Positions 2,677 to 14,043 of a DNA stretch of 64,000 nucleotides are shown here, piece after piece (positions within the stretch are counted from its first letter, which is position 1; each line of letters starts with the position of its first letter). The notes below the pieces were generated by a model. The model worked only from the letters and a program-made list of their open reading frames with translations, was not told where the DNA came from and did not search any database. Where the stretch lies: NCBI GenBank assembly GCA_024790105.1, contig GCA_024790105.1_3053.1; one strand, 5' to 3'. Position numbers and translations under genes: made by a program. This stretch comes from a phage.

Positions 2677-3591
2677 TCAATTAGAAAATAAATTTATCCA
2701 AGATTGTTCTTTAATTAAAAATGGCTCAGAATCATATGCCATTAAACTCTGTGTGATTAGTCCTTTAAAAGGCCCATCAATAAATTCCATGGTAAAATAT
2801 GGAATTTTATTCATTAGCCGTGCATTAGGAGCAGTACACAAAACTCTGCATCCTTTGAATACGCCTTTTTGTAATTTGTATTGCTTGGGATAAAATTCGC
2901 TTAAAATGTTGTTATTTGCCAAAATTTCAAAATGATTCACCAATTTATTTTTAATAGTTTTTGGCGAAAAATAAAGATATTCGAAAAGCTGAGTGTCTGT
3001 CATCATTGCATTCCGATTACGAAAAAACTGTGGACGAGTAATACCACCAATACAACATTTAATATTACAGCAGCAGTGTACAGTGTCAATATGGACACTA
3101 TAAATCTTATCCATATCAGGAGATTTGACAGGCTCATCAATTATATACAAAATTCGCGAAAGCGATAAACCTCTGAACTTGCTTCCTTTATTACCAATAA
3201 AACTGCGCACAGAATCAGTAAATAAACGAAAACGTATATCATCATTAGAATAACGCGAAAATTCCTTTTTAATGTTATTTGCAGAAATTTTAGCGTAAGC
3301 TGAAGTATTAGAAAGAACAATAACTGTTCCACCGTCATACAACCAATTAGCGGCAAAATTAGTTACTGCAATTGATTTACCGGATTGACGTCCACCATCT
3401 ATACGAAGTGTGCAGTACTGTTTAAGTAATTCTTCAAATGGTGGGATATAATCGTTTTTACAAATTTCTTCTACTCTAGCGTCAGAATGGTGTGTAAAAG
3501 CATTCATCAGGGATAGATAAGGACCAGTTAAAAATGTTCTCATTTTATTCTCTCTAAATTTGGGCCATTCCATGGCGCATGAATTGTCCAT
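2677..3591 (-). CDS. P-loop NTPase, terminase-ATPase-like Walker A/B, function unknown
   Basis: Walker A GGRQSGKS and Walker B LYIIDEP; ORF opens with GTG at 3606, first ATG at 3591; Cys cluster HCCCNIKCC. Confidence 0.5.
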
Positions 3592-3623
3592 TTCTGTATT
3601 TACCACTCCAAGTAATTATGAAT

Positions 3624-3653
3624 ATACTATCACAATTCTAGGAGAAAGTAAAC
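3624..3653 (-). promoter_or_regulatory. early-type promoter module upstream of the P-loop ATPase gene
   Basis: minus strand GTTTAC - 18 nt - TAGTAT; 26-nt core tatcacaattctaggagaaagtaaac repeated at 4023..4048. Confidence 0.45.
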
Positions 3654-3655
3654 TG

Positions 3656-3958
3656 TTATTTATCTTTAATTACTTTAGCTGCTTCGATAGCCGCTTGCTG
3701 AAGGTCATCCATAGACATACCGAATTTAGAAGCAAAGTTATCAATTTTCTTTTCGACAGCATTCAAAGGCTTGGCCTGTTTACCTTCATTAGCGCCAGGA
3801 AGAGCGAGAATACGCTCTTTGTCAATATAAAGGCTTACAAGTTTCTTACGGTCTTTATCGGACAAATCATGAAATGAATGGGCCTTTTTATTTATAGCGG
3901 CTTCTAATTTACCTGCACTCACTCGCGCTTCAGTAATAAATTCTTGATATGTTTTCAT
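3656..3958 (-). CDS. internal head protein with capsid targeting sequence (IPII/IPIII-like)
   Basis: 100 aa; N-terminus MKTYQEFITEA matches the T4 internal-protein capsid targeting sequence with a following L-x-E protease site; located next to e. Confidence 0.65.
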   Translation of the reverse strand: MKTYQEFITEARVSAGKLEAAINKKAHSFHDLSDKDRKKLVSLYIDKERILALPGANEGKQAKPLNAVEKKIDNFASKFGMSMDDLQQAAIEAAKVIKDK

Positions 3959-8061: not shown

Positions 8062-8535
8062 TTATTTGATTTGTTTAGCAGACCAAATGCGGTCTTTAAT
8101 AATTTTTTGGATGTCTTCAACATACTCTAGGTCATGAGCATGTGGGTTATCTTTAAAGCTATGAGCACGAGCTAGCTTTTGGCCTTCAGTTTTGATTACT
8201 AAAAGCTCTTTAAGGATAGCTTCATATTTGGAGATAATTCCTTTAACGATATTTTTTTCTTGTGTGACTTTAGGATCTGCTTTAGGAGCAGGTTTACCCG
8301 AAGCCTTTGCAAAAGCAGCGCCAGTAGCAACTAAACTTTTCCAGGCCATACTAACTGCATTTCCCGTAAATCCTTCCGCTTTCATGTCGCGTGCGAACTG
8401 AAATCGCGATTCATTAGAAGCATCTTTGTAAGAATATTTACCCGCTGCAATGGCTGCTTTTGCAACAGCTTGAATTTCGGTGCTAGATGCTTCATTTAAC
8501 ACCGCTTCATTTAAAAATTGAGTATATGATTTCAT
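8062..8535 (-). CDS. capsid-targeting-sequence protein (internal-protein-like, e.8 position)
   Basis: 157 aa; N-terminus MKSYTQFLNEA resembles the internal-protein capsid targeting sequence. Confidence 0.55.
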   Translation of the reverse strand: MKSYTQFLNEAVLNEASSTEIQAVAKAAIAAGKYSYKDASNESRFQFARDMKAEGFTGNAVSMAWKSLVATGAAFAKASGKPAPKADPKVTQEKNIVKGIISKYEAILKELLVIKTEGQKLARAHSFKDNPHAHDLEYVEDIQKIIKDRIWSAKQIK

Positions 8536-8575
8536 CTTATTTCCTGTTTTAATTCGTGGTTTTAATATACTACTA

Positions 8576-8583
8576 TATTTATA
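8576..8583 (-). promoter_or_regulatory. late promoter TATAAATA (minus strand) upstream of ORF 8062..8535
   Basis: plus tatttata = TATAAATA on minus strand about 40 nt upstream of the start codon. Confidence 0.5.
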
Positions 8584-8615
8584 CCAAAAAGCCCCAACCT
8601 TTTGGTCGGGGCTAA
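8581..8615 (-). terminator. rho-independent terminator (copy 2 of identical 35-bp repeat), ends the tRNA/stable-RNA transcription unit
   Basis: exact repeat of 8023..8057. Confidence 0.7.
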
Positions 8616-8664
8616 GCCTTGCGGCAACCTTGTCGGGGTTCCACCTGCTAAGGCAAGTGTTTGT

Positions 8665-8756
8665 ACGAAACGCCGGGATTCGAACCCGGTTATTAAGTAG
8701 TTGACGCTACTCAATATTTTTAAAAGGCCATATCTCGACCATATCCGAACGTTCCG
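8665..8756 (-). ncRNA. tRNA-like stable RNA candidate (possibly equivalent to T4 rnaC/rnaD)
   Basis: canonical T-arm CCGGGTTCGAATCCCGG and a 7-bp acceptor-like pairing CGGAACG/CGTTTCG, but no standard anticodon arm and no CCA. Confidence 0.35.
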
Positions 8757-8929
8757 TCAAAAACGCTACTCGGCTTACGGCAAAGATATTTCCTCGAATC
8801 GATAATTCGGTGCGCCGTTTCTGCTGTGATATAAGGGGACATTAACAAAACATAAAGATTTGTTAATGCCAGTCCTTAAACAGGGAACATCAGTCCGACG
8901 ACTTACCGGTAGCGACCCGGCTTCTTGTT

Positions 8930-9006
<77 letters not shown>

Positions 9007-9009
9007 TAG

Positions 9010-9675
9010 TTAAAATTTCATTTTTCGACCTTTAAACCATCCTTCTGGAATTGGGTCAGTTTTCTTAATACGTTTAGAAACTTTTTCATCTAATGAATGA
9101 ATCCACATCATGCCAAATTGGGAATTCTTTTCACCTTGTTGGTGTTTATTTCTGGCGTGAGATTCTTTCATTTTATTAATAGTTTCAGGAGTATGGGTCT
9201 TACCCAAGAAAGATTTAGTATTTAAAAATTTCTCTCTATACTTAGGATTATCCCAAAGCTGTTTAAACCTTTCTGAACCCATTTTACGATATTTTTCTTT
9301 AAGGTCTGGGTCGTTCTCAAATCTGGTTTTAAAAGCAGCAGCCCCTTTTAAGGAAGCTTCTTTCTTTTTATCCAAATATTCTTTAGTGTTTAAATGGTCC
9401 CAACCACCTTCACCACCTAATTTCAAATTATAAACATCAGGGCGCTTTAAAAACTCTTCAGTCACAATATTCTTTTCTGACTCAAACATAGAGGTTTTAT
9501 CGTCAAAGAACTCTAATATTTCTTTAGAGAAATTTTCTATACCATACTTGTCTTGGGCTCTTTTTAATAATTTACCAGAACCCATATATCCATCATCTAA
9601 ATTTTCGGTAGAATGAGCGCCTATATAGATTTTATTATTAATTTTATTTGTTATTTTATAAGTGTAATGGAACAT
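9010..9675 (-). CDS. segB: GIY-YIG homing endonuclease SegB
   Basis: 221 aa; GIY-YIG module HYTYKITNKINNKIYIGAHST; sits inside the tRNA cluster as segB does in T4. Confidence 0.85.
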   Translation of the reverse strand: MFHYTYKITNKINNKIYIGAHSTENLDDGYMGSGKLLKRAQDKYGIENFSKEILEFFDDKTSMFESEKNIVTEEFLKRPDVYNLKLGGEGGWDHLNTKEYLDKKKEASLKGAAAFKTRFENDPDLKEKYRKMGSERFKQLWDNPKYREKFLNTKSFLGKTHTPETINKMKESHARNKHQQGEKNSQFGMMWIHSLDEKVSKRIKKTDPIPEGWFKGRKMKF

Positions 9676-9716
9676 AAATATCTCCTATTTCTAAGAGTAT
9701 TTATGTTCCCAAAATA

Positions 9717-9788
9717 TGGCCCTGGGTGGAATTGAACCACCATCTGGCGATTATGAGTCGCTTGCTTGAACCTTCCAGCTACAGGGCC
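9717..9788 (-). tRNA. tRNA-Ile/Met (anticodon CAU)
   Basis: acceptor GGCCCTG/CAGGGCC pairs, anticodon loop CTCATAA, T-loop TTCAATT. Confidence 0.8.
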
Positions 9789-9794
9789 TTGATA

Positions 9795-9850
9795 TGCTGA
9801 TTGACGGAATCGAACCGCCGACATCCTCATTACAAGTGAGGTGCTCTACC
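9795..9850 (-). pseudogene. tRNA-Thr (UGU) remnant, 5' acceptor strand and D-stem missing
   Basis: anticodon arm CCTCA-CTTGTAA-TGAGG, T-arm and 3' acceptor AATCAGC present, but no complementary GCTGATT upstream; that position is occupied by the 3' end of the HNH ORF. Confidence 0.5.
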
Positions 9851-10307
9851 ACGCTTCCGTTATTTTGTTTTTATATGCTCTATTCCTTGATTTATACGTA
9901 TCAAGTTGAGAGTCACAATTGGAACAAACAAATCTCAGATTTTCTAATCTATGGTCATTGTTTATTCCATTAATATGATCGAGAATTAAAGGCATTGGTT
10001 TGCCATTCCATACTGCTTCTATTCCACAGATAGAGCACTCATATGGTAATATTTTGTCTTCTATAAGTCTTTTTCTAAGATGGCTTCTGCCGTAAGAAGA
10101 ATTTTCAACCATTACATCACTAAGATTATATCTGTTGGTTTTTGGACCAGTCTTAAGTCCTTTATTCCAGATTTTGCAACCTTTTTGAGCTCCGGCTCCC
10201 TTCCCTCTCACATATTCAGCTTTATTTGGATTAAGTTTGCAATATTTTTCATGCACACTTTTTCCGCCAGCTTGTTTAAATTCTTTATTACAAAATTGAC
10301 AATTCAT
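9846..10307 (-). CDS. HNH homing endonuclease
   Basis: motif LDHINGINNDHRLENLRFVCSNCDSQ plus Cys pairs; start set at internal Met so it clears the tRNA-Pro region (ORF is open up to 10367). Confidence 0.75.
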   Translation of the reverse strand: MNCQFCNKEFKQAGGKSVHEKYCKLNPNKAEYVRGKGAGAQKGCKIWNKGLKTGPKTNRYNLSDVMVENSSYGRSHLRKRLIEDKILPYECSICGIEAVWNGKPMPLILDHINGINNDHRLENLRFVCSNCDSQLDTYKSRNRAYKNKITEAW

Positions 10308-10323
10308 TATCTTCTCATTTAAT

Positions 10324-10400
10324 TGGGGTGACCGATGGGATTTGAACCTACGACATTCTGCTCCCAAAGCAGACGCTCTACCAAACTGAGCTACACGGAG
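10324..10400 (-). pseudogene. tRNA-Pro (UGG)-like gene whose 3' acceptor strand cannot pair
   Basis: canonical D-arm TAGCTCAGTTTGGTAGAGC and anticodon arm TCTGC-TTTGGGA-GCAGA, but 5' CTCCGTG has no complement; 3' end reads CATCGGTCACCCCA. Confidence 0.5.
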
Positions 10401-10412
10401 TAAATTAAATTT

Positions 10413-10484
<72 letters not shown>

Positions 10485-10490
10485 AAACTT

Positions 10491-10577
10491 TGGTACGAGA
10501 AGTGGGACTCGAACCCACAAGGAAATCATTCCGCAGCATTTTAAGTGCTGTGCCTTTACCAATTTGACCATTCTCGC
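10491..10577 (-). tRNA. tRNA-Leu (anticodon UAA), long variable arm, CCA encoded
   Basis: acceptor GCGAGAA/TTCTCGT, anticodon loop CTTAAAA, long extra arm, T-arm GGGTTCGAGTCCC. Confidence 0.85.
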
Positions 10578-10583
10578 GTTATA

Positions 10584-11216
10584 TTATTTATTACGTGAAA
10601 AAGACTGTTCTATCAATTCTGGACACTTTCGTTCTATCCATTTTCTAGCTTTTTGTGGGCTTATACCTATTATTTTAGCAGCTTTACTAACCCATCCAAA
10701 TTTAGAATAATCGATTTTAACTAATTCTTCGTAAATTTCATCAGTTAAAATCTTTTCATTAATATTTACCAGTAAATGATATAATTTGTTATCATTAGCA
10801 ATTTTAATGAATCTTTTATAGTTTCCGCCTTTACTTAAACCTAATGAAGTAATTGCAGATGATATAGTAGCCGAATTTAATAATGCGTTTAAAATTTCTT
10901 CATCACTAACATTATAACGCTTTTTATTATTTTTAATATTTTTACCAGCAAAAGTATCAGTTTGCGAGTGACAGTTTGGACATAATAATCTTAAATTTGA
11001 TTTAAGATGATTTTTGTTATTTCCATCAATATGGTCTAATTGCAGAACAATATGCTTATTTTGCCATTTTGAAATTTTACAAATTGCACACTCATATGGA
11101 AAAATATTTTCTTTTATTATTTTGTCTTTCAGCTTTCCTGTGCTAAAATTTGGGTGTTTTCCTTCAAAAATTTCAGCTAATTTAGTATCCATAATATGAT
11201 TCCCAATTATTAACAA
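10584..11216 (-). CDS. HNH homing endonuclease (paralog of 9846..10307)
   Basis: motif LDHIDGNNKNHLKSNLRLLCPNCHSQ; stop codon lies 6 nt upstream of the tRNA-Leu 5' end. Confidence 0.75.
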   Translation of the reverse strand: MLIIGNHIMDTKLAEIFEGKHPNFSTGKLKDKIIKENIFPYECAICKISKWQNKHIVLQLDHIDGNNKNHLKSNLRLLCPNCHSQTDTFAGKNIKNNKKRYNVSDEEILNALLNSATISSAITSLGLSKGGNYKRFIKIANDNKLYHLLVNINEKILTDEIYEELVKIDYSKFGWVSKAAKIIGISPQKARKWIERKCPELIEQSFSRNK

Positions 11217-11302
11217 AGGCTCTCAAGCAAGAACCCTTGATGATAGAGGGTATTAATCAGTGCGATATGAGTTAATAATAACAAATAATTCTTAAAGCAT
11301 AT

Positions 11303-11590
11303 TTACCATTTATGATAATACATATTTACGATGCATTCAAGACCCAAAGGATTCTTGAAAATATCATATTCAAGAGGACCTTTTTCTGTTTCAATAAAGA
11401 AATCAAAATTTACTGTATTAAATTTACGGTCTTCCTTCACTAATTTAACTTGAGAAGATGAACGGTCAATGTAAACCTTTTCAACTTCAAAACATGTTAA
11501 AACGCCATAATCATCAATCAAGGCTTTAGCCGCGTCTTGATCATATTTATATCCATTTTCAATGGATGATACTTTCGCATAAAGAATCAT
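11303..11590 (-). CDS. hypothetical protein
   Basis: 95-aa ORF in minus-strand operon. Confidence 0.4.
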   Translation of the reverse strand: MILYAKVSSIENGYKYDQDAAKALIDDYGVLTCFEVEKVYIDRSSSQVKLVKEDRKFNTVNFDFFIETEKGPLEYDIFKNPLGLECIVNMYYHKW

Positions 11591-11592
11591 TA

Positions 11593-11997
11593 TTAACCTT
11601 TATCAACAATAGTATGTGTATGGGCATTTACGATTTGCCACCAGTCAAAACTATCGCCAAATCGTTTTGATTTATTGTCTTCAATAATTTGGCGTAATTC
11701 ATCTTCTGTTTCAGCATACGCAATCAAATCATCATATCCACCGCAAGGATAGTAATTATCGCCTGCGAACAAAAGAAAATTTACTTTAGATGGGTCTATA
11801 TAATAATGCTCTTTAGGATATTTAGTTCCTTTCCAATCAGTTACTTCAACATAATGGTAAGAAAATCCATTTTTACTTTCAACCCAACTCCACGCTTCAA
11901 AAGGAGTATTAAAAACTCTATCAGGTATTAAATTACCTTCAAAATGAGAAGGATTTGCATAATCCCCAGCATAAACATAATATTCGTTAATATTCAT
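11593..11997 (-). CDS. hypothetical protein
   Basis: 134-aa ORF, stop adjacent to the next start. Confidence 0.4.
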   Translation of the reverse strand: MNINEYYVYAGDYANPSHFEGNLIPDRVFNTPFEAWSWVESKNGFSYHYVEVTDWKGTKYPKEHYYIDPSKVNFLLFAGDNYYPCGGYDDLIAYAETEDELRQIIEDNKSKRFGDSFDWWQIVNAHTHTIVDKG

Positions 11998-12183
11998 TTA
12001 TTCACCTTTAGAAATTTTATCCATAACGATAGCAATTAAACCAATTAAAAATGCTACTACAAGTGAAAACACATTTTCTGCTGTAGTTAATAATCCACAT
12101 ATAAATCCAACAAACATTGAAAAACTAAAAGCGGAAGCAGAAATTGCAATAGCAACATTTCGAATTAATTCACAACGTTTCAT
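11998..12183 (-). CDS. small hydrophobic (membrane) protein
   Basis: 61 aa dominated by two hydrophobic helices. Confidence 0.4.
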   Translation of the reverse strand: MKRCELIRNVAIAISASAFSFSMFVGFICGLLTTAENVFSLVVAFLIGLIAIVMDKISKGE

Positions 12184-12211
12184 TTTATTCTCCTCGGTAG
12201 TTGATAGGGTA

Positions 12212-12241
12212 ATAGTATCACAACTAAAACCCTATGTAAAC
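12212..12241 (-). promoter_or_regulatory. early-type promoter module
   Basis: minus strand GTTTAC - 18 nt - TACTAT with conserved upstream TTTCACAAAGTTG element. Confidence 0.45.
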
Positions 12242-12253
12242 AACTTTGTGAAA

Positions 12254-12511
12254 TTATTTTAAATCTTCTAATCGTTTCTTCATCTTAGAACCATTTTTAG
12301 CAATTTCTCCTGCATCGGAGCATAATGCTAAAAGTGCTTTAACTTTAGTTTGGTCTCCTTTAAAAGATGAAGGATCGACTGCAGCAGCAAGTTCTTTAAT
12401 ACGAGAGAAAAGACGCTCAGCTTCAGCTAAAGCCATTCCAAGCTTTACTTCCATGCCATGAGAAGATTCAGTAATAGTAGTTTTTGTAGCAAACTCTTTG
12501 AAAGTTTTCAT
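12254..12511 (-). CDS. internal head protein with capsid targeting sequence (ipI position)
   Basis: 85 aa; N-terminus MKTFKEFATK resembles the capsid targeting sequence; adjacent to 57B as ipI is in T4. Confidence 0.6.
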   Translation of the reverse strand: MKTFKEFATKTTITESSHGMEVKLGMALAEAERLFSRIKELAAAVDPSSFKGDQTKVKALLALCSDAGEIAKNGSKMKKRLEDLK

Positions 12512-12541
12512 TTTATTTTCCTAATTAATTTTGATGAGGTA

Positions 12542-12571
12542 ATAGTATCACTACCTCATCAGTATGTAAAC
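12542..12571 (-). promoter_or_regulatory. early-type promoter module upstream of the ipI-position gene
   Basis: 31 nt identical to the module at 12212..12241. Confidence 0.45.
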
Positions 12572-12583
12572 AACTTTGTGAAA

Positions 12584-13280
<697 letters not shown>

Positions 13281-13281
<1 letters not shown>

Positions 13282-13994
13282 TATAGTACCTTTAGTGTAT
13301 TTTTAATTTTAGAAAAAAGTTCTTCAAGAGAACCATCGTTTGTAATTACTAAATCGCCATCACGAATTGGCAATCCAGCTTCTGTAATATGTGTATCATT
13401 GGATTTTTGACCAGGACGAACTACATGAATTACTGTAGCACCCATCGCCCTAGCCGCATCCATTTCATGATCTTGACGAGTATCAGGAACGATATAATAA
13501 TCATAACCTGAGTTAAATTTATCAAGATAATCTAAAGCAAATAATTTTACCCAATACATGCGGTCGAAGTTATTAACAATCAAATCCGTACCTAGGGCTT
13601 GCATCAGACGACGGACTGACCATTGATCTTCAATATTATTTATAACGTCAGCAATCTTGTTAAATGCTACGAAATTAACTGCGTCATCAAAAACAAACAC
13701 ACCTTTAATTGGGCTTTTACTATTAAGATAGCAAAATGCTTGTTCCATAATCGTAATTACTTCTAATTTAGTCAGATTTAAATTAGTTTCACGATCATAG
13801 TCAATTCCTTCAAACTCTTTACGAGTTAAACAAGGATAGTCAGTGTTTTCTGCAAATACACCCCATGCATAAGCCAATGCATCTTTAATAGGACCAGCAA
13901 GTTGATATTTAACTGCAGAATAATTATTCATGATAAAATCTGCAGTAGTATCTTTTCCACTGCGCTTTACACCACTTAAAAAGATTAGTTTCAT
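13281..13994 (-). CDS. 1: gp1 deoxynucleoside monophosphate kinase
   Basis: P-loop GVKRSGKDT; start set at MKLIFLSG. Confidence 0.85.
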
Positions 13995-14043
13995 GTGTTT
14001 CTCCTCAAATTTAATTAAGATTATAACACACAAAACTGAAGCA

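What the first reader, a model, noticed from the sequence alone, without database searches (positions are those of the whole stretch)
10584..11216. Second HNH endonuclease gene abuts the 5' end of tRNA-Leu where T4 carries tRNA-Gln
The HNH ORF stop is 6 nt upstream of the first nucleotide of tRNA-Leu, and no tRNA-Gln (anticodon UUG) was found anywhere in the cluster. The protein is a paralog of the HNH at 9846..10307 (shared IxPYEC-x-IC...LDHI-x-G-x-N-x-N-H...NL...C-x-NC module). Two related HNH genes each occupy a former tRNA slot, suggesting repeated targeting of tRNA genes by one endonuclease lineage.
Basis: partly seen in the sequence, partly recalled or inferred. Interest (0 to 1): 0.45.

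Follow-up and report, generated by a model that had tools for sequence, protein, structure and literature searches.

The report
HNH homing endonuclease replacing phage tRNA-Gln
In this T4-like phage a small selfish nuclease gene has replaced the tRNA-Gln gene, and a second, independently acquired one has destroyed three more tRNA genes; this kind of event is already known, but here the junctions can be read base by base.

Summary
A 202-aa HNH ORF (10584..11192, minus strand; ATG at 11192, not the TTG at 11216) ends 6 nt before tRNA-Leu(UAA). No tRNA-Gln exists anywhere in the window.

Compared with T4, a 620-nt AT-rich cassette (11198..10579) replaces nt 8-73 of tRNA-Gln. The first 7 nt (TGGGAAT) remain. 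Of about 520-530 GenBank phage records with this locus, 448 carry tRNA-Gln and 64 carry this gene in the same slot at 98-100% identity.

The second HNH gene (9846..10307) shares only the 71-aa catalytic core (44% identity), so it is not a local duplicate. It is 99.4% identical to a gene lying between tRNA-His and tRNA-Ser in Enterobacter Karamvirus phages. It arrived with donor tRNA fragments, leaving Pro/His and Ser/Thr chimeras and no tRNA-Ser.

SRA contigs show that the two cassettes assort independently.

Both belong to an HNH clade that includes T5 F-TflIV/HegA and lives in phage tRNA arrays: 68 of 75 environmental relatives lie within 2 kb of a tRNA. Members preferentially abut the 5' end of tRNA-Leu or another class II tRNA.

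Verdict: free-standing homing endonucleases, a known kind. Cleavage specificity is untested.

The parts
10584..11192 (-). HNH2 coding sequence, 202 aa. It has an N-terminal HNH (beta-beta-alpha-metal) nuclease core with two CxxC pairs and a helical, HTH-like C-terminal domain.
   Evidence: ORF list. PHROG 14736 E 5e-124 over the full length. Pfam HNH 17.3 bits, below the cut-off of 21.4, and weak HTH hits at 164-192. C35, C38, H54, N66, C71, C74 and H75 are invariant in 17 relatives. AlphaFold2 mean pLDDT 85.
10579..11198 (-). HNH2 cassette: 620 nt absent from T4, consisting of a 6-nt leader, the ORF and 5 nt. It replaces nt 8-73 of tRNA-Gln.
   Evidence: blastn and direct sequence comparison with T4 and JEP6. 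GC is 26.1% against 35.6% for the window. The same break points, 11199 and 10578, appear in SRA contigs L087 and L090, which keep tRNA-Gln.
11199..11205 (-). Remnant of tRNA-Gln: TGGGAAT, the first 7 nt (5' acceptor strand).
   Evidence: Identical to T4 tRNA-Gln nt 1-7 and continuous with the conserved upstream intergenic region.
10491..10577 (-). tRNA-Leu (anticodon UAA), intact. Its 5' end lies 6 nt after the HNH2 stop codon. It carries G1-U72 (T at 10495) where T4 and JEP6 have G1-C72.
   Evidence: ARAGORN. Rfam 57 bits. Sequence comparison.
10413..10484 (-). tRNA-Gly (UCC), intact.
   Evidence: ARAGORN. Rfam 65.8 bits.
10324..10400 (-). Chimeric tRNA remnant. The 5' part is the resident tRNA-Pro (UGG) up to the T-loop GGTTCAAATCC. 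The 3' part (CATCGGTCACCCCA) comes from a Karamvirus-type tRNA-His. The acceptor stem no longer pairs.
   Evidence: Rfam partial hit, model positions 6-65, 45 bits. ARAGORN does not call it. Three-way sequence comparison with JEP6 and EnA02.
9846..10307 (-). HNH1 coding sequence, 153 aa. It has a Cys/His-rich N-terminus (possible zinc finger, not tested) and a C-terminal HNH core.
   Evidence: ORF list. PHROG 10822 E 9e-32. Pfam HNH 20.2 bits, just below the cut-off. 99.4% nt identity to Enterobacter phages EnA02 and KKP_3262.
9851..10337 (-). HNH1 cassette: 487 nt of non-Tequatrovirus DNA. It replaces the last 11 nt of tRNA-Pro, all of tRNA-Ser and the first 17 nt of tRNA-Thr. Donor-type identity runs from 10354 to 9843.
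   Evidence: blastn against JEP6 and EnA02. Junction sequences.
9795..9858 (-). Chimeric tRNA remnant. The 5' end (GGAAGCGTGGTAGAGC) comes from a Karamvirus-type tRNA-Ser and is joined at GGTAGAGC to the resident tRNA-Thr (UGU). The D-stem and acceptor stem are broken.
   Evidence: Rfam partial hit, model positions 9-63, 29 bits. Sequence comparison.
9717..9788 (-). tRNA with anticodon CAU, intact. ARAGORN calls it Met. The T4 record annotates the gene in the same position (next to segB) as tRNA-Ile.
9010..9675 (-). segB, a GIY-YIG homing endonuclease gene. Its stop codon lies 3 nt before tRNA-Arg.
   Evidence: Pfam GIY-YIG 25.7 bits, above the cut-off. Synteny with T4 segB. Function from PMC2330249.
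8930..9006 (-). tRNA-Arg (UCU), intact.

Best explanation
What it is. The ORF at 10584..11192 (HNH2) is a free-standing HNH homing-endonuclease gene carried on a minimal 620-nt cassette. The cassette lies one base upstream of tRNA-Leu(UAA). It has replaced nt 8-73 of the tRNA-Gln gene of the T4-type tRNA operon.

Shown:
- the exact junctions;
- the 7-nt tRNA-Gln remnant;
- an intact catalytic and zinc-binding motif;
- a presence/absence polymorphism at identical break points in many Tequatrovirus genomes;
- foreign base composition;
- higher conservation than the flanking DNA;
- independent assortment from the second cassette.

Inferred mechanism:
1. The gene has no terminator between it and the tRNAs, so it is co-transcribed with the tRNA operon.
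2. RNase P cleavage at the 5' end of tRNA-Leu would leave the mRNA ending 6 nt after the stop codon. This should keep expression low, as was proposed for segB and for the T5 enzymes.
3. In a mixed infection the protein binds through its C-terminal helix-turn-helix-like domain and nicks or cuts the allele that still carries tRNA-Gln. Its own genome lacks that sequence and is therefore immune.
4. Recombinational repair then copies the cassette and deletes tRNA-Gln.

The second HNH gene (HNH1). It is a separate member of the same tRNA-array-associated HNH clade. It was imported recently from a Karamvirus-like phage. The import was an illegitimate exchange whose crossovers fall in the conserved T-loop and D-arm sequences of non-orthologous tRNA genes. 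It cost the phage tRNA-Pro, tRNA-Ser and tRNA-Thr.
For: Junctions and remnant.

T4 reference map with tRNA-Gln next to tRNA-Leu.

Population counts:
- 448 records carry the T4 arrangement.
- 64 carry HNH2 across both junctions.
- All 64 are 98.4-100% identical over the gene, while the surrounding 4.1 kb is 89.7-96.4% identical in the same phages (Killian, PD112, vB_ECOLIGBLB0003).

Composition: GC 26% against 36% for the window.

Family assignment:
- PHROG 14736 over the full length.
- Catalytic H/N/H and four Cys invariant in relatives.
- 35% identity over 84% of the protein to T5 ORF070, and a match to BF23 hegA, annotated F-TflIV.
- The T5 gene lies among tRNA genes.
- The T5 enzymes are described as site-specific endonucleases encoded in the tRNA gene region.

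Independent assortment: SRA contigs L087 and L090 carry tRNA-Gln plus HNH1. L088, L089 and L091 carry HNH2 plus HNH1. Homology breaks exactly at 11199 and 10578. JEP6 carries HNH2 without HNH1.

Mosaic boundary: in L087 identity is 85.6% upstream of the slot and 98.7% downstream.

Transcription: no terminator-like site lies between HNH2 and the tRNAs; the only strong one follows the small-RNA genes at 8613..8590.

HNH1 import:
- 99.4% identity to two Karamvirus phages only.
- There it sits cleanly between intact tRNA-His and tRNA-Ser.
- The empty site is seen in many related genomes.
- Donor-type tRNA fragments are present in the window.

Clade-wide association with tRNA arrays. Cultured examples.
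Against: - No cleavage, nicking or homing experiment exists for this protein. Its target site is inferred only from what its own genome lacks.
- Pfam HNH scores are below the curated cut-off for both proteins.
- The fold search gave only weak, non-significant matches to HNH nucleases and HTH domains.
- The ATG has only a weak Shine-Dalgarno-like sequence, so the level of expression is unknown.
- High conservation of the cassette could also reflect a recent common origin spread by ordinary recombination rather than nuclease-driven homing.
- The donor of HNH2, and therefore how its left junction arose, is unknown.
- Transcription and RNase P effects are inferred from T4 literature, not measured.
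Confidence: 0.7

Rival explanations
1. HNH2 is no longer, or never was, an active homing element. It is a passenger or a domesticated nuclease, for example one that excludes co-infecting phages or degrades DNA. It would spread among Tequatrovirus genomes by ordinary homologous recombination through the highly conserved tRNA flanks.
For: The flanks (tRNA-Leu and the upstream intergenic region) are 97.7-100% identical between carriers and non-carriers, so ordinary recombination could move the cassette. Only about 12% of records carry it. Nothing here shows activity.
Against: The catalytic and zinc ligands are invariant, and the protein is at least 99% identical in 59 records. The cassette is more conserved than its surroundings. 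Its homologues in T5 are reported as site-specific endonucleases. The neighbouring segB shows that nuclease-driven homing operates in this very region.
Confidence: 0.2
2. The HNH2 arrangement is ancestral, and tRNA-Gln was inserted later in the T4 lineage.
For: None beyond the formal symmetry of a presence/absence polymorphism.
Against: The window keeps the first 7 nt of tRNA-Gln in register with T4 (chance about 6e-5, by my arithmetic). tRNA-Gln is the majority state, 448 against 64 records. The cassette has foreign base composition. Relatives of the gene occur in tRNA arrays of unrelated phages.
Confidence: 0.03
3. The two HNH genes are paralogs made by duplication within this phage lineage. 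One endonuclease would then have re-targeted a second tRNA gene.
For: They share an HNH core at 44% identity and each matches the other's PHROG family.
Against: Similarity ends with the 71-aa core and the domain order differs. The HNH2 core is closer to environmental proteins (up to 63%) than to HNH1. HNH1 is 99.4% identical to Karamvirus genes and brought Karamvirus tRNA fragments with it. The two cassettes occur separately in other genomes.
Confidence: 0.03
4. The HNH1 insertion with chimeric tRNAs is an assembly artefact that joins reads of two phages at conserved tRNA motifs.
For: Both junctions lie in sequences conserved among tRNAs.
Against: The exact protein in the same Tequatrovirus context is found on six independently assembled contigs from seven-digit SRA runs of two accession series. 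One contig is 100% identical to 3,676 nt of the window. The exact overlaps are only 3-11 and 8 nt, too short for an assembler to join.
Confidence: 0.01

Closest known systems
Phage T5 / BF23 H-N-H endonuclease F-TflIV (HegA; T5 ORF070)
   Same: It is a homologous protein: 35% identity over 84% of HNH2 for T5, and 48% over the core for BF23 hegA. It has the same order of HNH core followed by a helical DNA-binding tail. Its gene lies inside the phage tRNA gene cluster. It is described as a site-specific endonuclease.
   Different: It belongs to a different phage family (Demerecviridae). In T5 it follows tRNA-Ser and tRNA-Met, and no tRNA abuts its stop codon. Identity is low, so target specificity cannot be transferred. 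Its biochemistry was not readable here because Akulenko et al. 2004 is not held.
Phage T4 SegB (GIY-YIG homing endonuclease in the tRNA cluster)
   Same: It is a free-standing homing endonuclease in the same tRNA operon, also present in this window at 9010..9675. It ends a few nt before a tRNA 5' end. It recognises a tRNA gene motif (the T-psi-C stem-loop). It drives replacement of the tRNA region of a co-infecting phage. Control of its expression by tRNA processing has been proposed (PMC2330249).
   Different: It has an unrelated catalytic fold (GIY-YIG, not HNH). Its activity and homing are shown experimentally, whereas those of HNH2 are only inferred.
T4 Mob-type free-standing HNH endonucleases (MobA-E) and Hef
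   Same: They are free-standing HNH genes in T-even phages with presence/absence polymorphism between relatives. They are placed in the same His-Me finger group as F-TflIV in a published classification (PMC5714182).
   Different: They lie at other loci, such as nrdA-nrdB for mobE, not in tRNA clusters. No sequence comparison with them was run here.
HNH endonucleases of tRNA arrays in mycobacteriophages and mycobacterial plasmids
   Same: HNH genes are the most widespread coding sequences inside tRNA arrays. They have been implicated in generating tRNA repertoire diversity (PMC5966550, PMC6409571).
   Different: Those reports are at the level of gene content. They do not describe exact junctions, tRNA chimeras or a preference for the 5' side of tRNA-Leu. 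Homology with the clade studied here was not tested.
Intron-encoded HNH homing endonucleases such as I-HmuI
   Same: They share the HNH catalytic motif and a modular DNA-binding tail. There was a weak structural match to 1u3e.
   Different: No intron is present: Rfam finds only tRNAs in the window. The gene is free-standing and replaces a gene rather than interrupting one.

Membership tests
HNH (His-Me finger) endonuclease superfamily | Significant match to a curated HNH profile. | tested here: inconclusive
   Pfam PF01844 scores 17.3 bits (HNH2) and 20.2 bits (HNH1), both below the 21.4 cut-off. PHROG families annotated as HNH endonuclease match strongly: 14736 at E 5e-124 and 10822 at E 9e-32.
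HNH (His-Me finger) endonuclease superfamily | Catalytic His...Asn...His/Asn triad and flanking CxxC zinc ligands are conserved. | tested here: met
   In HNH2, C35, C38, H54, N66, C71, C74 and H75 are invariant across 17 relatives. The same residues align in HNH1.
HNH (His-Me finger) endonuclease superfamily | Beta-beta-alpha-metal fold. | tested here: inconclusive
   The AlphaFold2 model has pLDDT above 90 over residues 11-70 (10-residue block means), with two strands and a helix at 51-75. Foldseek against PDB lists McrA, Gme HNH, PacI and I-HmuI, but the best E-value is 0.26.
Free-standing homing endonuclease | The gene is present or absent at one and the same site among closely related genomes, with conserved flanks. 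| tested here: met
   64 records carry the gene and 448 carry tRNA-Gln at identical break points. SRA contigs confirm the break points.
Free-standing homing endonuclease | The gene is not inside an intron or intein. | tested here: met
   Rfam finds only tRNAs in the window. The ORF is bounded by intergenic or tRNA sequence.
Free-standing homing endonuclease | Site-specific cleavage or nicking of the allele that lacks the gene. | not testable with these tools
   This needs purified protein and T4-type tRNA-Gln/tRNA-Leu DNA.
Free-standing homing endonuclease | Nuclease-dependent preferential inheritance with co-conversion of flanks in mixed infection. | not testable with these tools
   Only indirect signs are available. 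The cassette is more conserved than its flanks, and there is a mosaic boundary at the slot in L087.
T5 F-TflIV / HegA-like endonucleases | Sequence homology over most of the protein. | tested here: met
   tblastn gives 34.7% identity over residues 16-184, E 5e-15, to T5. BF23 hegA, annotated F-TflIV, gives 48% over the core.
T5 F-TflIV / HegA-like endonucleases | The gene is located in the phage tRNA gene cluster. | tested here: met
   Window. T5. 68 of 75 environmental relatives.
Group I intron-encoded HNH endonuclease | The ORF is embedded in a group I intron that interrupts a gene. | tested here: not met
   No intron family was found by Rfam. The tRNA-Gln body is deleted, not split.

The most novel reading that the evidence does not exclude
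This HNH clade may be specialised for phage tRNA arrays and for one position in them: immediately 5' of tRNA-Leu, or more broadly of the long-arm class II tRNAs Leu, Tyr and Ser.

Among dereplicated environmental relatives, 30 of 75 end within 20 nt of, or overlap, the start of a same-strand tRNA. That tRNA is Leu in 18 and class II in 23. For other ORFs in the same loci the figures are 4 of 48 and 10 of 48.

The window fits this pattern: HNH2 abuts tRNA-Leu(UAA), and HNH1 in its donor abuts tRNA-Ser.

If real, three things would follow:
1. These enzymes read a feature of class II tRNA genes.
2. The universally conserved T-loop and D-arm sequences of tRNA genes serve as portable recombination anchors that let such cassettes cross between phage genera, as the Pro/His and Ser/Thr chimeras here show once.
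3. Placing the stop codon at or inside the tRNA 5' end couples nuclease expression to RNase P processing.
Probability: 0.3. Interest if true: 0.6.

Novelty: new member of a known kind. Interest (0 to 1): 0.4.

Why it matters
Phage tRNA genes are now viewed as counter-defence and translation-tuning cargo, so what adds and removes them matters. This locus shows selfish nuclease cassettes deleting four of the eight T4-type tRNA genes, with base-level junctions.

One cassette crossed between phage genera using only a few bases of tRNA sequence shared by non-orthologous genes. That gives a concrete mechanism for the known mosaicism of tRNA arrays.

The clade-wide preference for the 5' edge of tRNA-Leu, if confirmed, would point to a target-recognition rule and to an expression control through tRNA processing. 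Both could be tested directly with T4 genetics.

The gene itself is already annotated as an HNH or homing endonuclease in dozens of GenBank phages, so the basic finding is not surprising to a specialist.

Tried and rejected
- Sigma-70 promoter scan of 8400..12700: 22 sites against 18.4 expected, uninformative. A MotA-box-like TTGCTTGA upstream of the tRNA-Gln remnant was seen by eye only and was not tested.
- Foldseek of the HNH2 model against PDB: no match below E 0.26. It was used only as weak support for an HNH plus HTH architecture.
- Neighbour-joining tree of the 85-aa core: poorly resolved. It shows only that Leu-adjacent members are scattered, and is not relied on.
- Search for a third family member in the window with a profile of the family: only the two known genes were found.
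- A 13-nt match of the tRNA-Gln 3' end inside HNH1 (10156..10168) lies on the wrong strand at E 0.05, and is treated as chance.
- Akulenko et al. 2004 on the T5 enzymes could not be read, so their cleavage sites are not used.
- No unrelated HNH family was run as an external control for the tRNA-array association. Internal controls were used instead: upstream neighbours and other ORFs in the same loci.
- The two searches of the literature held here returned no paper on this Tequatrovirus gene; this is not an exhaustive check.

Full report
**Context.** The window is a T4-like (Tequatrovirus) phage. The region 8500..14000 is collinear with T4 from the small stable RNA genes rnaC and rnaD to gene 1, on the minus strand. 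T4 has eight tRNA genes here in the order Gln, Leu, Gly, Pro, Ser, Thr, Ile, then segB, then Arg.

ARAGORN finds only four tRNAs in the whole window:
- Leu(UAA) at 10491..10577
- Gly at 10413..10484
- a CAU-anticodon tRNA at 9717..9788, in the position where T4 has its tRNA-Ile gene
- Arg at 8930..9006

**Checking the observation.** The ORF exists, and its stop codon (10586..10584) is followed by TATAAC and then the first base of tRNA-Leu, a 6-nt gap. The likely start is the ATG at 11192, not the TTG at 11216:
- The TTG lies in DNA shared with T4, upstream of the inserted segment.
- The annotated homologue in phage JEP6 is 609 nt.
- PHROG 14736 aligns residues 1-202 of 202.

No tRNA-Gln is detectable. 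This holds with Rfam at E<=10 around the cluster, with Rfam at gathering score on all 64 kb, and with blastn of T4 tRNA-Gln.

The two HNH proteins share 44% identity over 71 residues, E 1e-19, confined to the catalytic core.

**What replaced tRNA-Gln.** Alignment with T4 shows 95.6% identity through the intergenic region downstream of trna.2 and into the first 7 nt of tRNA-Gln (TGGGAAT, 11205..11199). A 620-nt segment absent from T4 follows (11198..10579). Then come the single spacer C and tRNA-Leu, which T4 also has. The T4 segment that is missing is nt 8-73 of tRNA-Gln.

The cassette is minimal: a 6-nt leader, the ORF, and 5 nt. Its GC content is 26%, against 36% for the window.

**Population data.**
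- A 161-nt T4 probe across tRNA-Gln is covered at 80% or more in 448 phage records.
- A 791-nt probe across both junctions of the cassette is covered in 64 records.
- In all 64 records the gene is 98.4-100% identical.
- The surrounding 4.1 kb is only 89.7-96.4% identical in the same phages.

This is therefore a mutually exclusive two-allele polymorphism with fixed break points, and the cassette is younger or more mobile than its surroundings.

**The protein.** HNH2 has two CxxC pairs and the His/Asn/His residues of the HNH motif, all invariant in 17 full-length relatives. It also has a conserved C-terminal block (consensus IDFSKxGWVxKASKIxGIxPQK) with weak helix-turn-helix matches. The AlphaFold2 model is confident per residue (pLDDT 85) but not in its domain arrangement (pTM 0.42). 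Structural matches to HNH nucleases and HTH domains are weak.

tblastn finds T5 ORF070, and BF23 hegA annotated as F-TflIV, at 35% identity over 84% of the protein. The T5 gene lies among tRNA genes. The T5 enzymes F-TflI, II and IV are cited as site-specific endonucleases of the T5 tRNA gene region.

**The second HNH gene.** HNH1 (9846..10307) has megablast matches in only two phage records, both Enterobacter Karamvirus phages, at 99.4% identity. In EnA02 it lies between intact tRNA-His and tRNA-Ser, with its stop codon 1 nt before tRNA-Ser. Many related Karamvirus genomes show the empty site, tRNA-His-CCAATTC-tRNA-Ser.

In the window the donor-type sequence includes the 3' end of that tRNA-His and the first 16 nt of that tRNA-Ser.
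- **Left junction.** The resident tRNA-Pro runs up to the T-loop GGTTCAAATCC and continues as CATCGGTCACCCCA of tRNA-His.
- **Right junction.** GGAAGCGTGGTAGAGC of tRNA-Ser continues as the resident tRNA-Thr from the anticodon stem onwards.
- **Shared bases.** The exact shared sequence is 8 nt (GGTAGAGC) on the right. On the left it is 3 nt, or 11 nt allowing one mismatch to EnA02.

Rfam sees both chimeras only as partial tRNAs without acceptor stems, and ARAGORN rejects them. The phage has therefore lost tRNA-Pro, tRNA-Ser and tRNA-Thr as well as tRNA-Gln.

The direction of transfer is from Karamvirus to Tequatrovirus. The insertion is clean in the former and carries foreign tRNA fragments in the latter.

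[quoted passage not shown] A SegB-induced break repaired on a foreign template is a possible origin, but this is speculation.

**Independent confirmation.** The exact HNH1 protein occurs on six SRA-derived contigs, all in a Tequatrovirus context.
- One contig is 100% identical to window 12262..8587.
- Two others also carry both cassettes.
- Two carry intact tRNA-Gln plus HNH1, and their homology to the window breaks exactly at 11199 and 10578.

With JEP6 (HNH2 only) and T4 (neither), all four combinations exist, so the two cassettes move independently. In L087 identity to the window is 85.6% upstream of the slot and 98.7% downstream. The slot is a boundary of genetic exchange, which agrees with published observations on nuclease genes (cited).

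**Family-wide pattern.** A profile of full-length relatives recovered 591 confirmed stretches in IMG/VR, and the best 80 were analysed. After dereplication at 90% identity, the 75 loci gave these results:
- 68 of 75 have a tRNA within 2 kb, and 54 have three or more.
- 445 of 489 tRNAs are on the same strand as the HNH gene.
- In 30 loci a same-strand tRNA starts within 20 nt after the stop codon or overlaps the ORF end.
- That tRNA is Leu in 18, Tyr in 4 and Ser in 1.

Comparisons for the Leu and class II preference:

| Comparison set | Leu | Class II (Leu, Tyr, Ser) | Test |
|---|---|---|---|
| Downstream neighbour of the HNH ORF | 18 of 30 | 23 of 30 | - |
| Non-adjacent tRNAs in the same loci | 11.5% | 21% | binomial p about 1e-10 |
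| Upstream neighbour of the HNH ORF | 6 of 28 | 11 of 28 | Fisher p 0.004 for Leu |
| Other ORFs in the same loci that abut a tRNA | 4 of 48 | 10 of 48 | Fisher p about 1e-6 |

Cultured examples are T5, Edwardsiella phage PEi20 and Bacillus phage Thrax1. Two further GenBank hits overlap an annotated tRNA-Leu.

The core of HNH2 is up to 63% identical to such proteins, more than to HNH1. The loci are not shown to be phylogenetically independent, and a crude tree shows only that Leu-adjacent members are scattered.

**Mechanism.** Steps that are shown:
- cassette structure
- tRNA loss
- polymorphism
- independent assortment
- family membership at the motif level
- association with tRNA arrays

Steps that are inferred:
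- co-transcription with the tRNA operon, since no terminator lies before 8613..8590
- trimming of the mRNA by RNase P at tRNA-Leu +1, which was proposed for segB and the T5 enzymes as a brake on expression
- cleavage of the tRNA-Gln allele, which the carrier genome lacks
- repair that copies the cassette

In the window all three nuclease ORFs end 1-6 nt before a tRNA 5' end. For HNH1 this refers to its position in the donor. In Karamvirus the same His|Ser slot is alternatively filled by a GIY-YIG gene that ends 3 nt before tRNA-Ser. Flush placement may therefore simply be the only way to fit into a tight array, whereas the preference for Leu is specific to this HNH clade.

**Comparison with what is known.** Homing endonucleases in phage tRNA clusters are documented for T4 SegB, for T5 F-TflI/II/IV and, at the gene-content level, for tRNA arrays of mycobacteriophages. 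HNH2 is already annotated as an HNH or homing endonuclease in many GenBank records.

New relative to the collections searched:
- the exact replacement of tRNA-Gln with a 7-nt remnant
- the presence of the Karamvirus gene in a Tequatrovirus
- the chimeric tRNAs that record how it entered
- the preference of the clade for the 5' side of tRNA-Leu

The verdict is a new member of a known kind, of moderate interest.

Noticed in passing
window 10324..10400 and 9795..9858 (minus strand): Two chimeric tRNA remnants flank the other HNH gene: a Pro/His fusion and a Ser/Thr fusion. With tRNA-Ser deleted, the phage keeps only 4 of the 8 T4-type tRNAs.
   Followed up: yes
L093, L094 and hits H213, H216, H218, H227 (Karamvirus tRNA-His|tRNA-Ser spacer): The same 7-nt spacer between tRNA-His and tRNA-Ser is empty in most Karamvirus genomes. 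It is filled by the HNH gene in two genomes and by an unrelated GIY-YIG Seg-like gene in at least four others. It is therefore a hot spot used by two nuclease families.
   Followed up: partly
window 9007..9012, 10578..10586; L002 3445..3449: All three nuclease ORFs end 1-6 nt before a tRNA 5' end: segB 3 nt before tRNA-Arg, HNH2 6 nt before tRNA-Leu, and HNH1 in its donor 1 nt before tRNA-Ser. Among environmental relatives, 14 of 30 abutting ORFs have their stop codon inside the tRNA.
   Followed up: partly
window 10495: tRNA-Leu has T at position 72, giving a G1-U72 wobble pair at the top of the acceptor stem. T4 and JEP6 have C there.
   Followed up: no
window 9868..9872: A run of five A, where EnA02 has four, shifts the frame at the very end of HNH1. 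The last residues change and the stop codon moves into the tRNA-Ser/Thr chimera.
   Followed up: partly
L087 1645..2663 versus 2730..3751: In an SRA contig that has tRNA-Gln plus HNH1, identity to the window drops from 98.7% downstream of the tRNA-Gln/HNH2 slot to 85.6% upstream of it. The slot is a mosaic boundary.
   Followed up: partly
L085 1501..1749 (Edwardsiella phage PEi20): An unannotated ORF with the same HNH core (55% identity) lies between tRNA-Leu and tRNA-Met, just downstream of trna.2 in another Tevenvirinae genus.
   Followed up: no
window 11225..11245: The sequence TTCTTGCTTGAGAG, followed by TAATAAT just upstream of the tRNA-Gln remnant, resembles a T4 middle (MotA-type) promoter. 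T4 has TTGTTAGA and JEP6 has TTGTTTGA at the same place. This was judged by eye from memory of the consensus and was not tested.
   Followed up: no
window 8590..8925: The region after tRNA-Arg corresponds to the T4 small stable RNA genes rnaD and rnaC and ends in a strong terminator-like hairpin at 8613..8590. Rfam has no family for them, and mechanical ORFs there are spurious.
   Followed up: no
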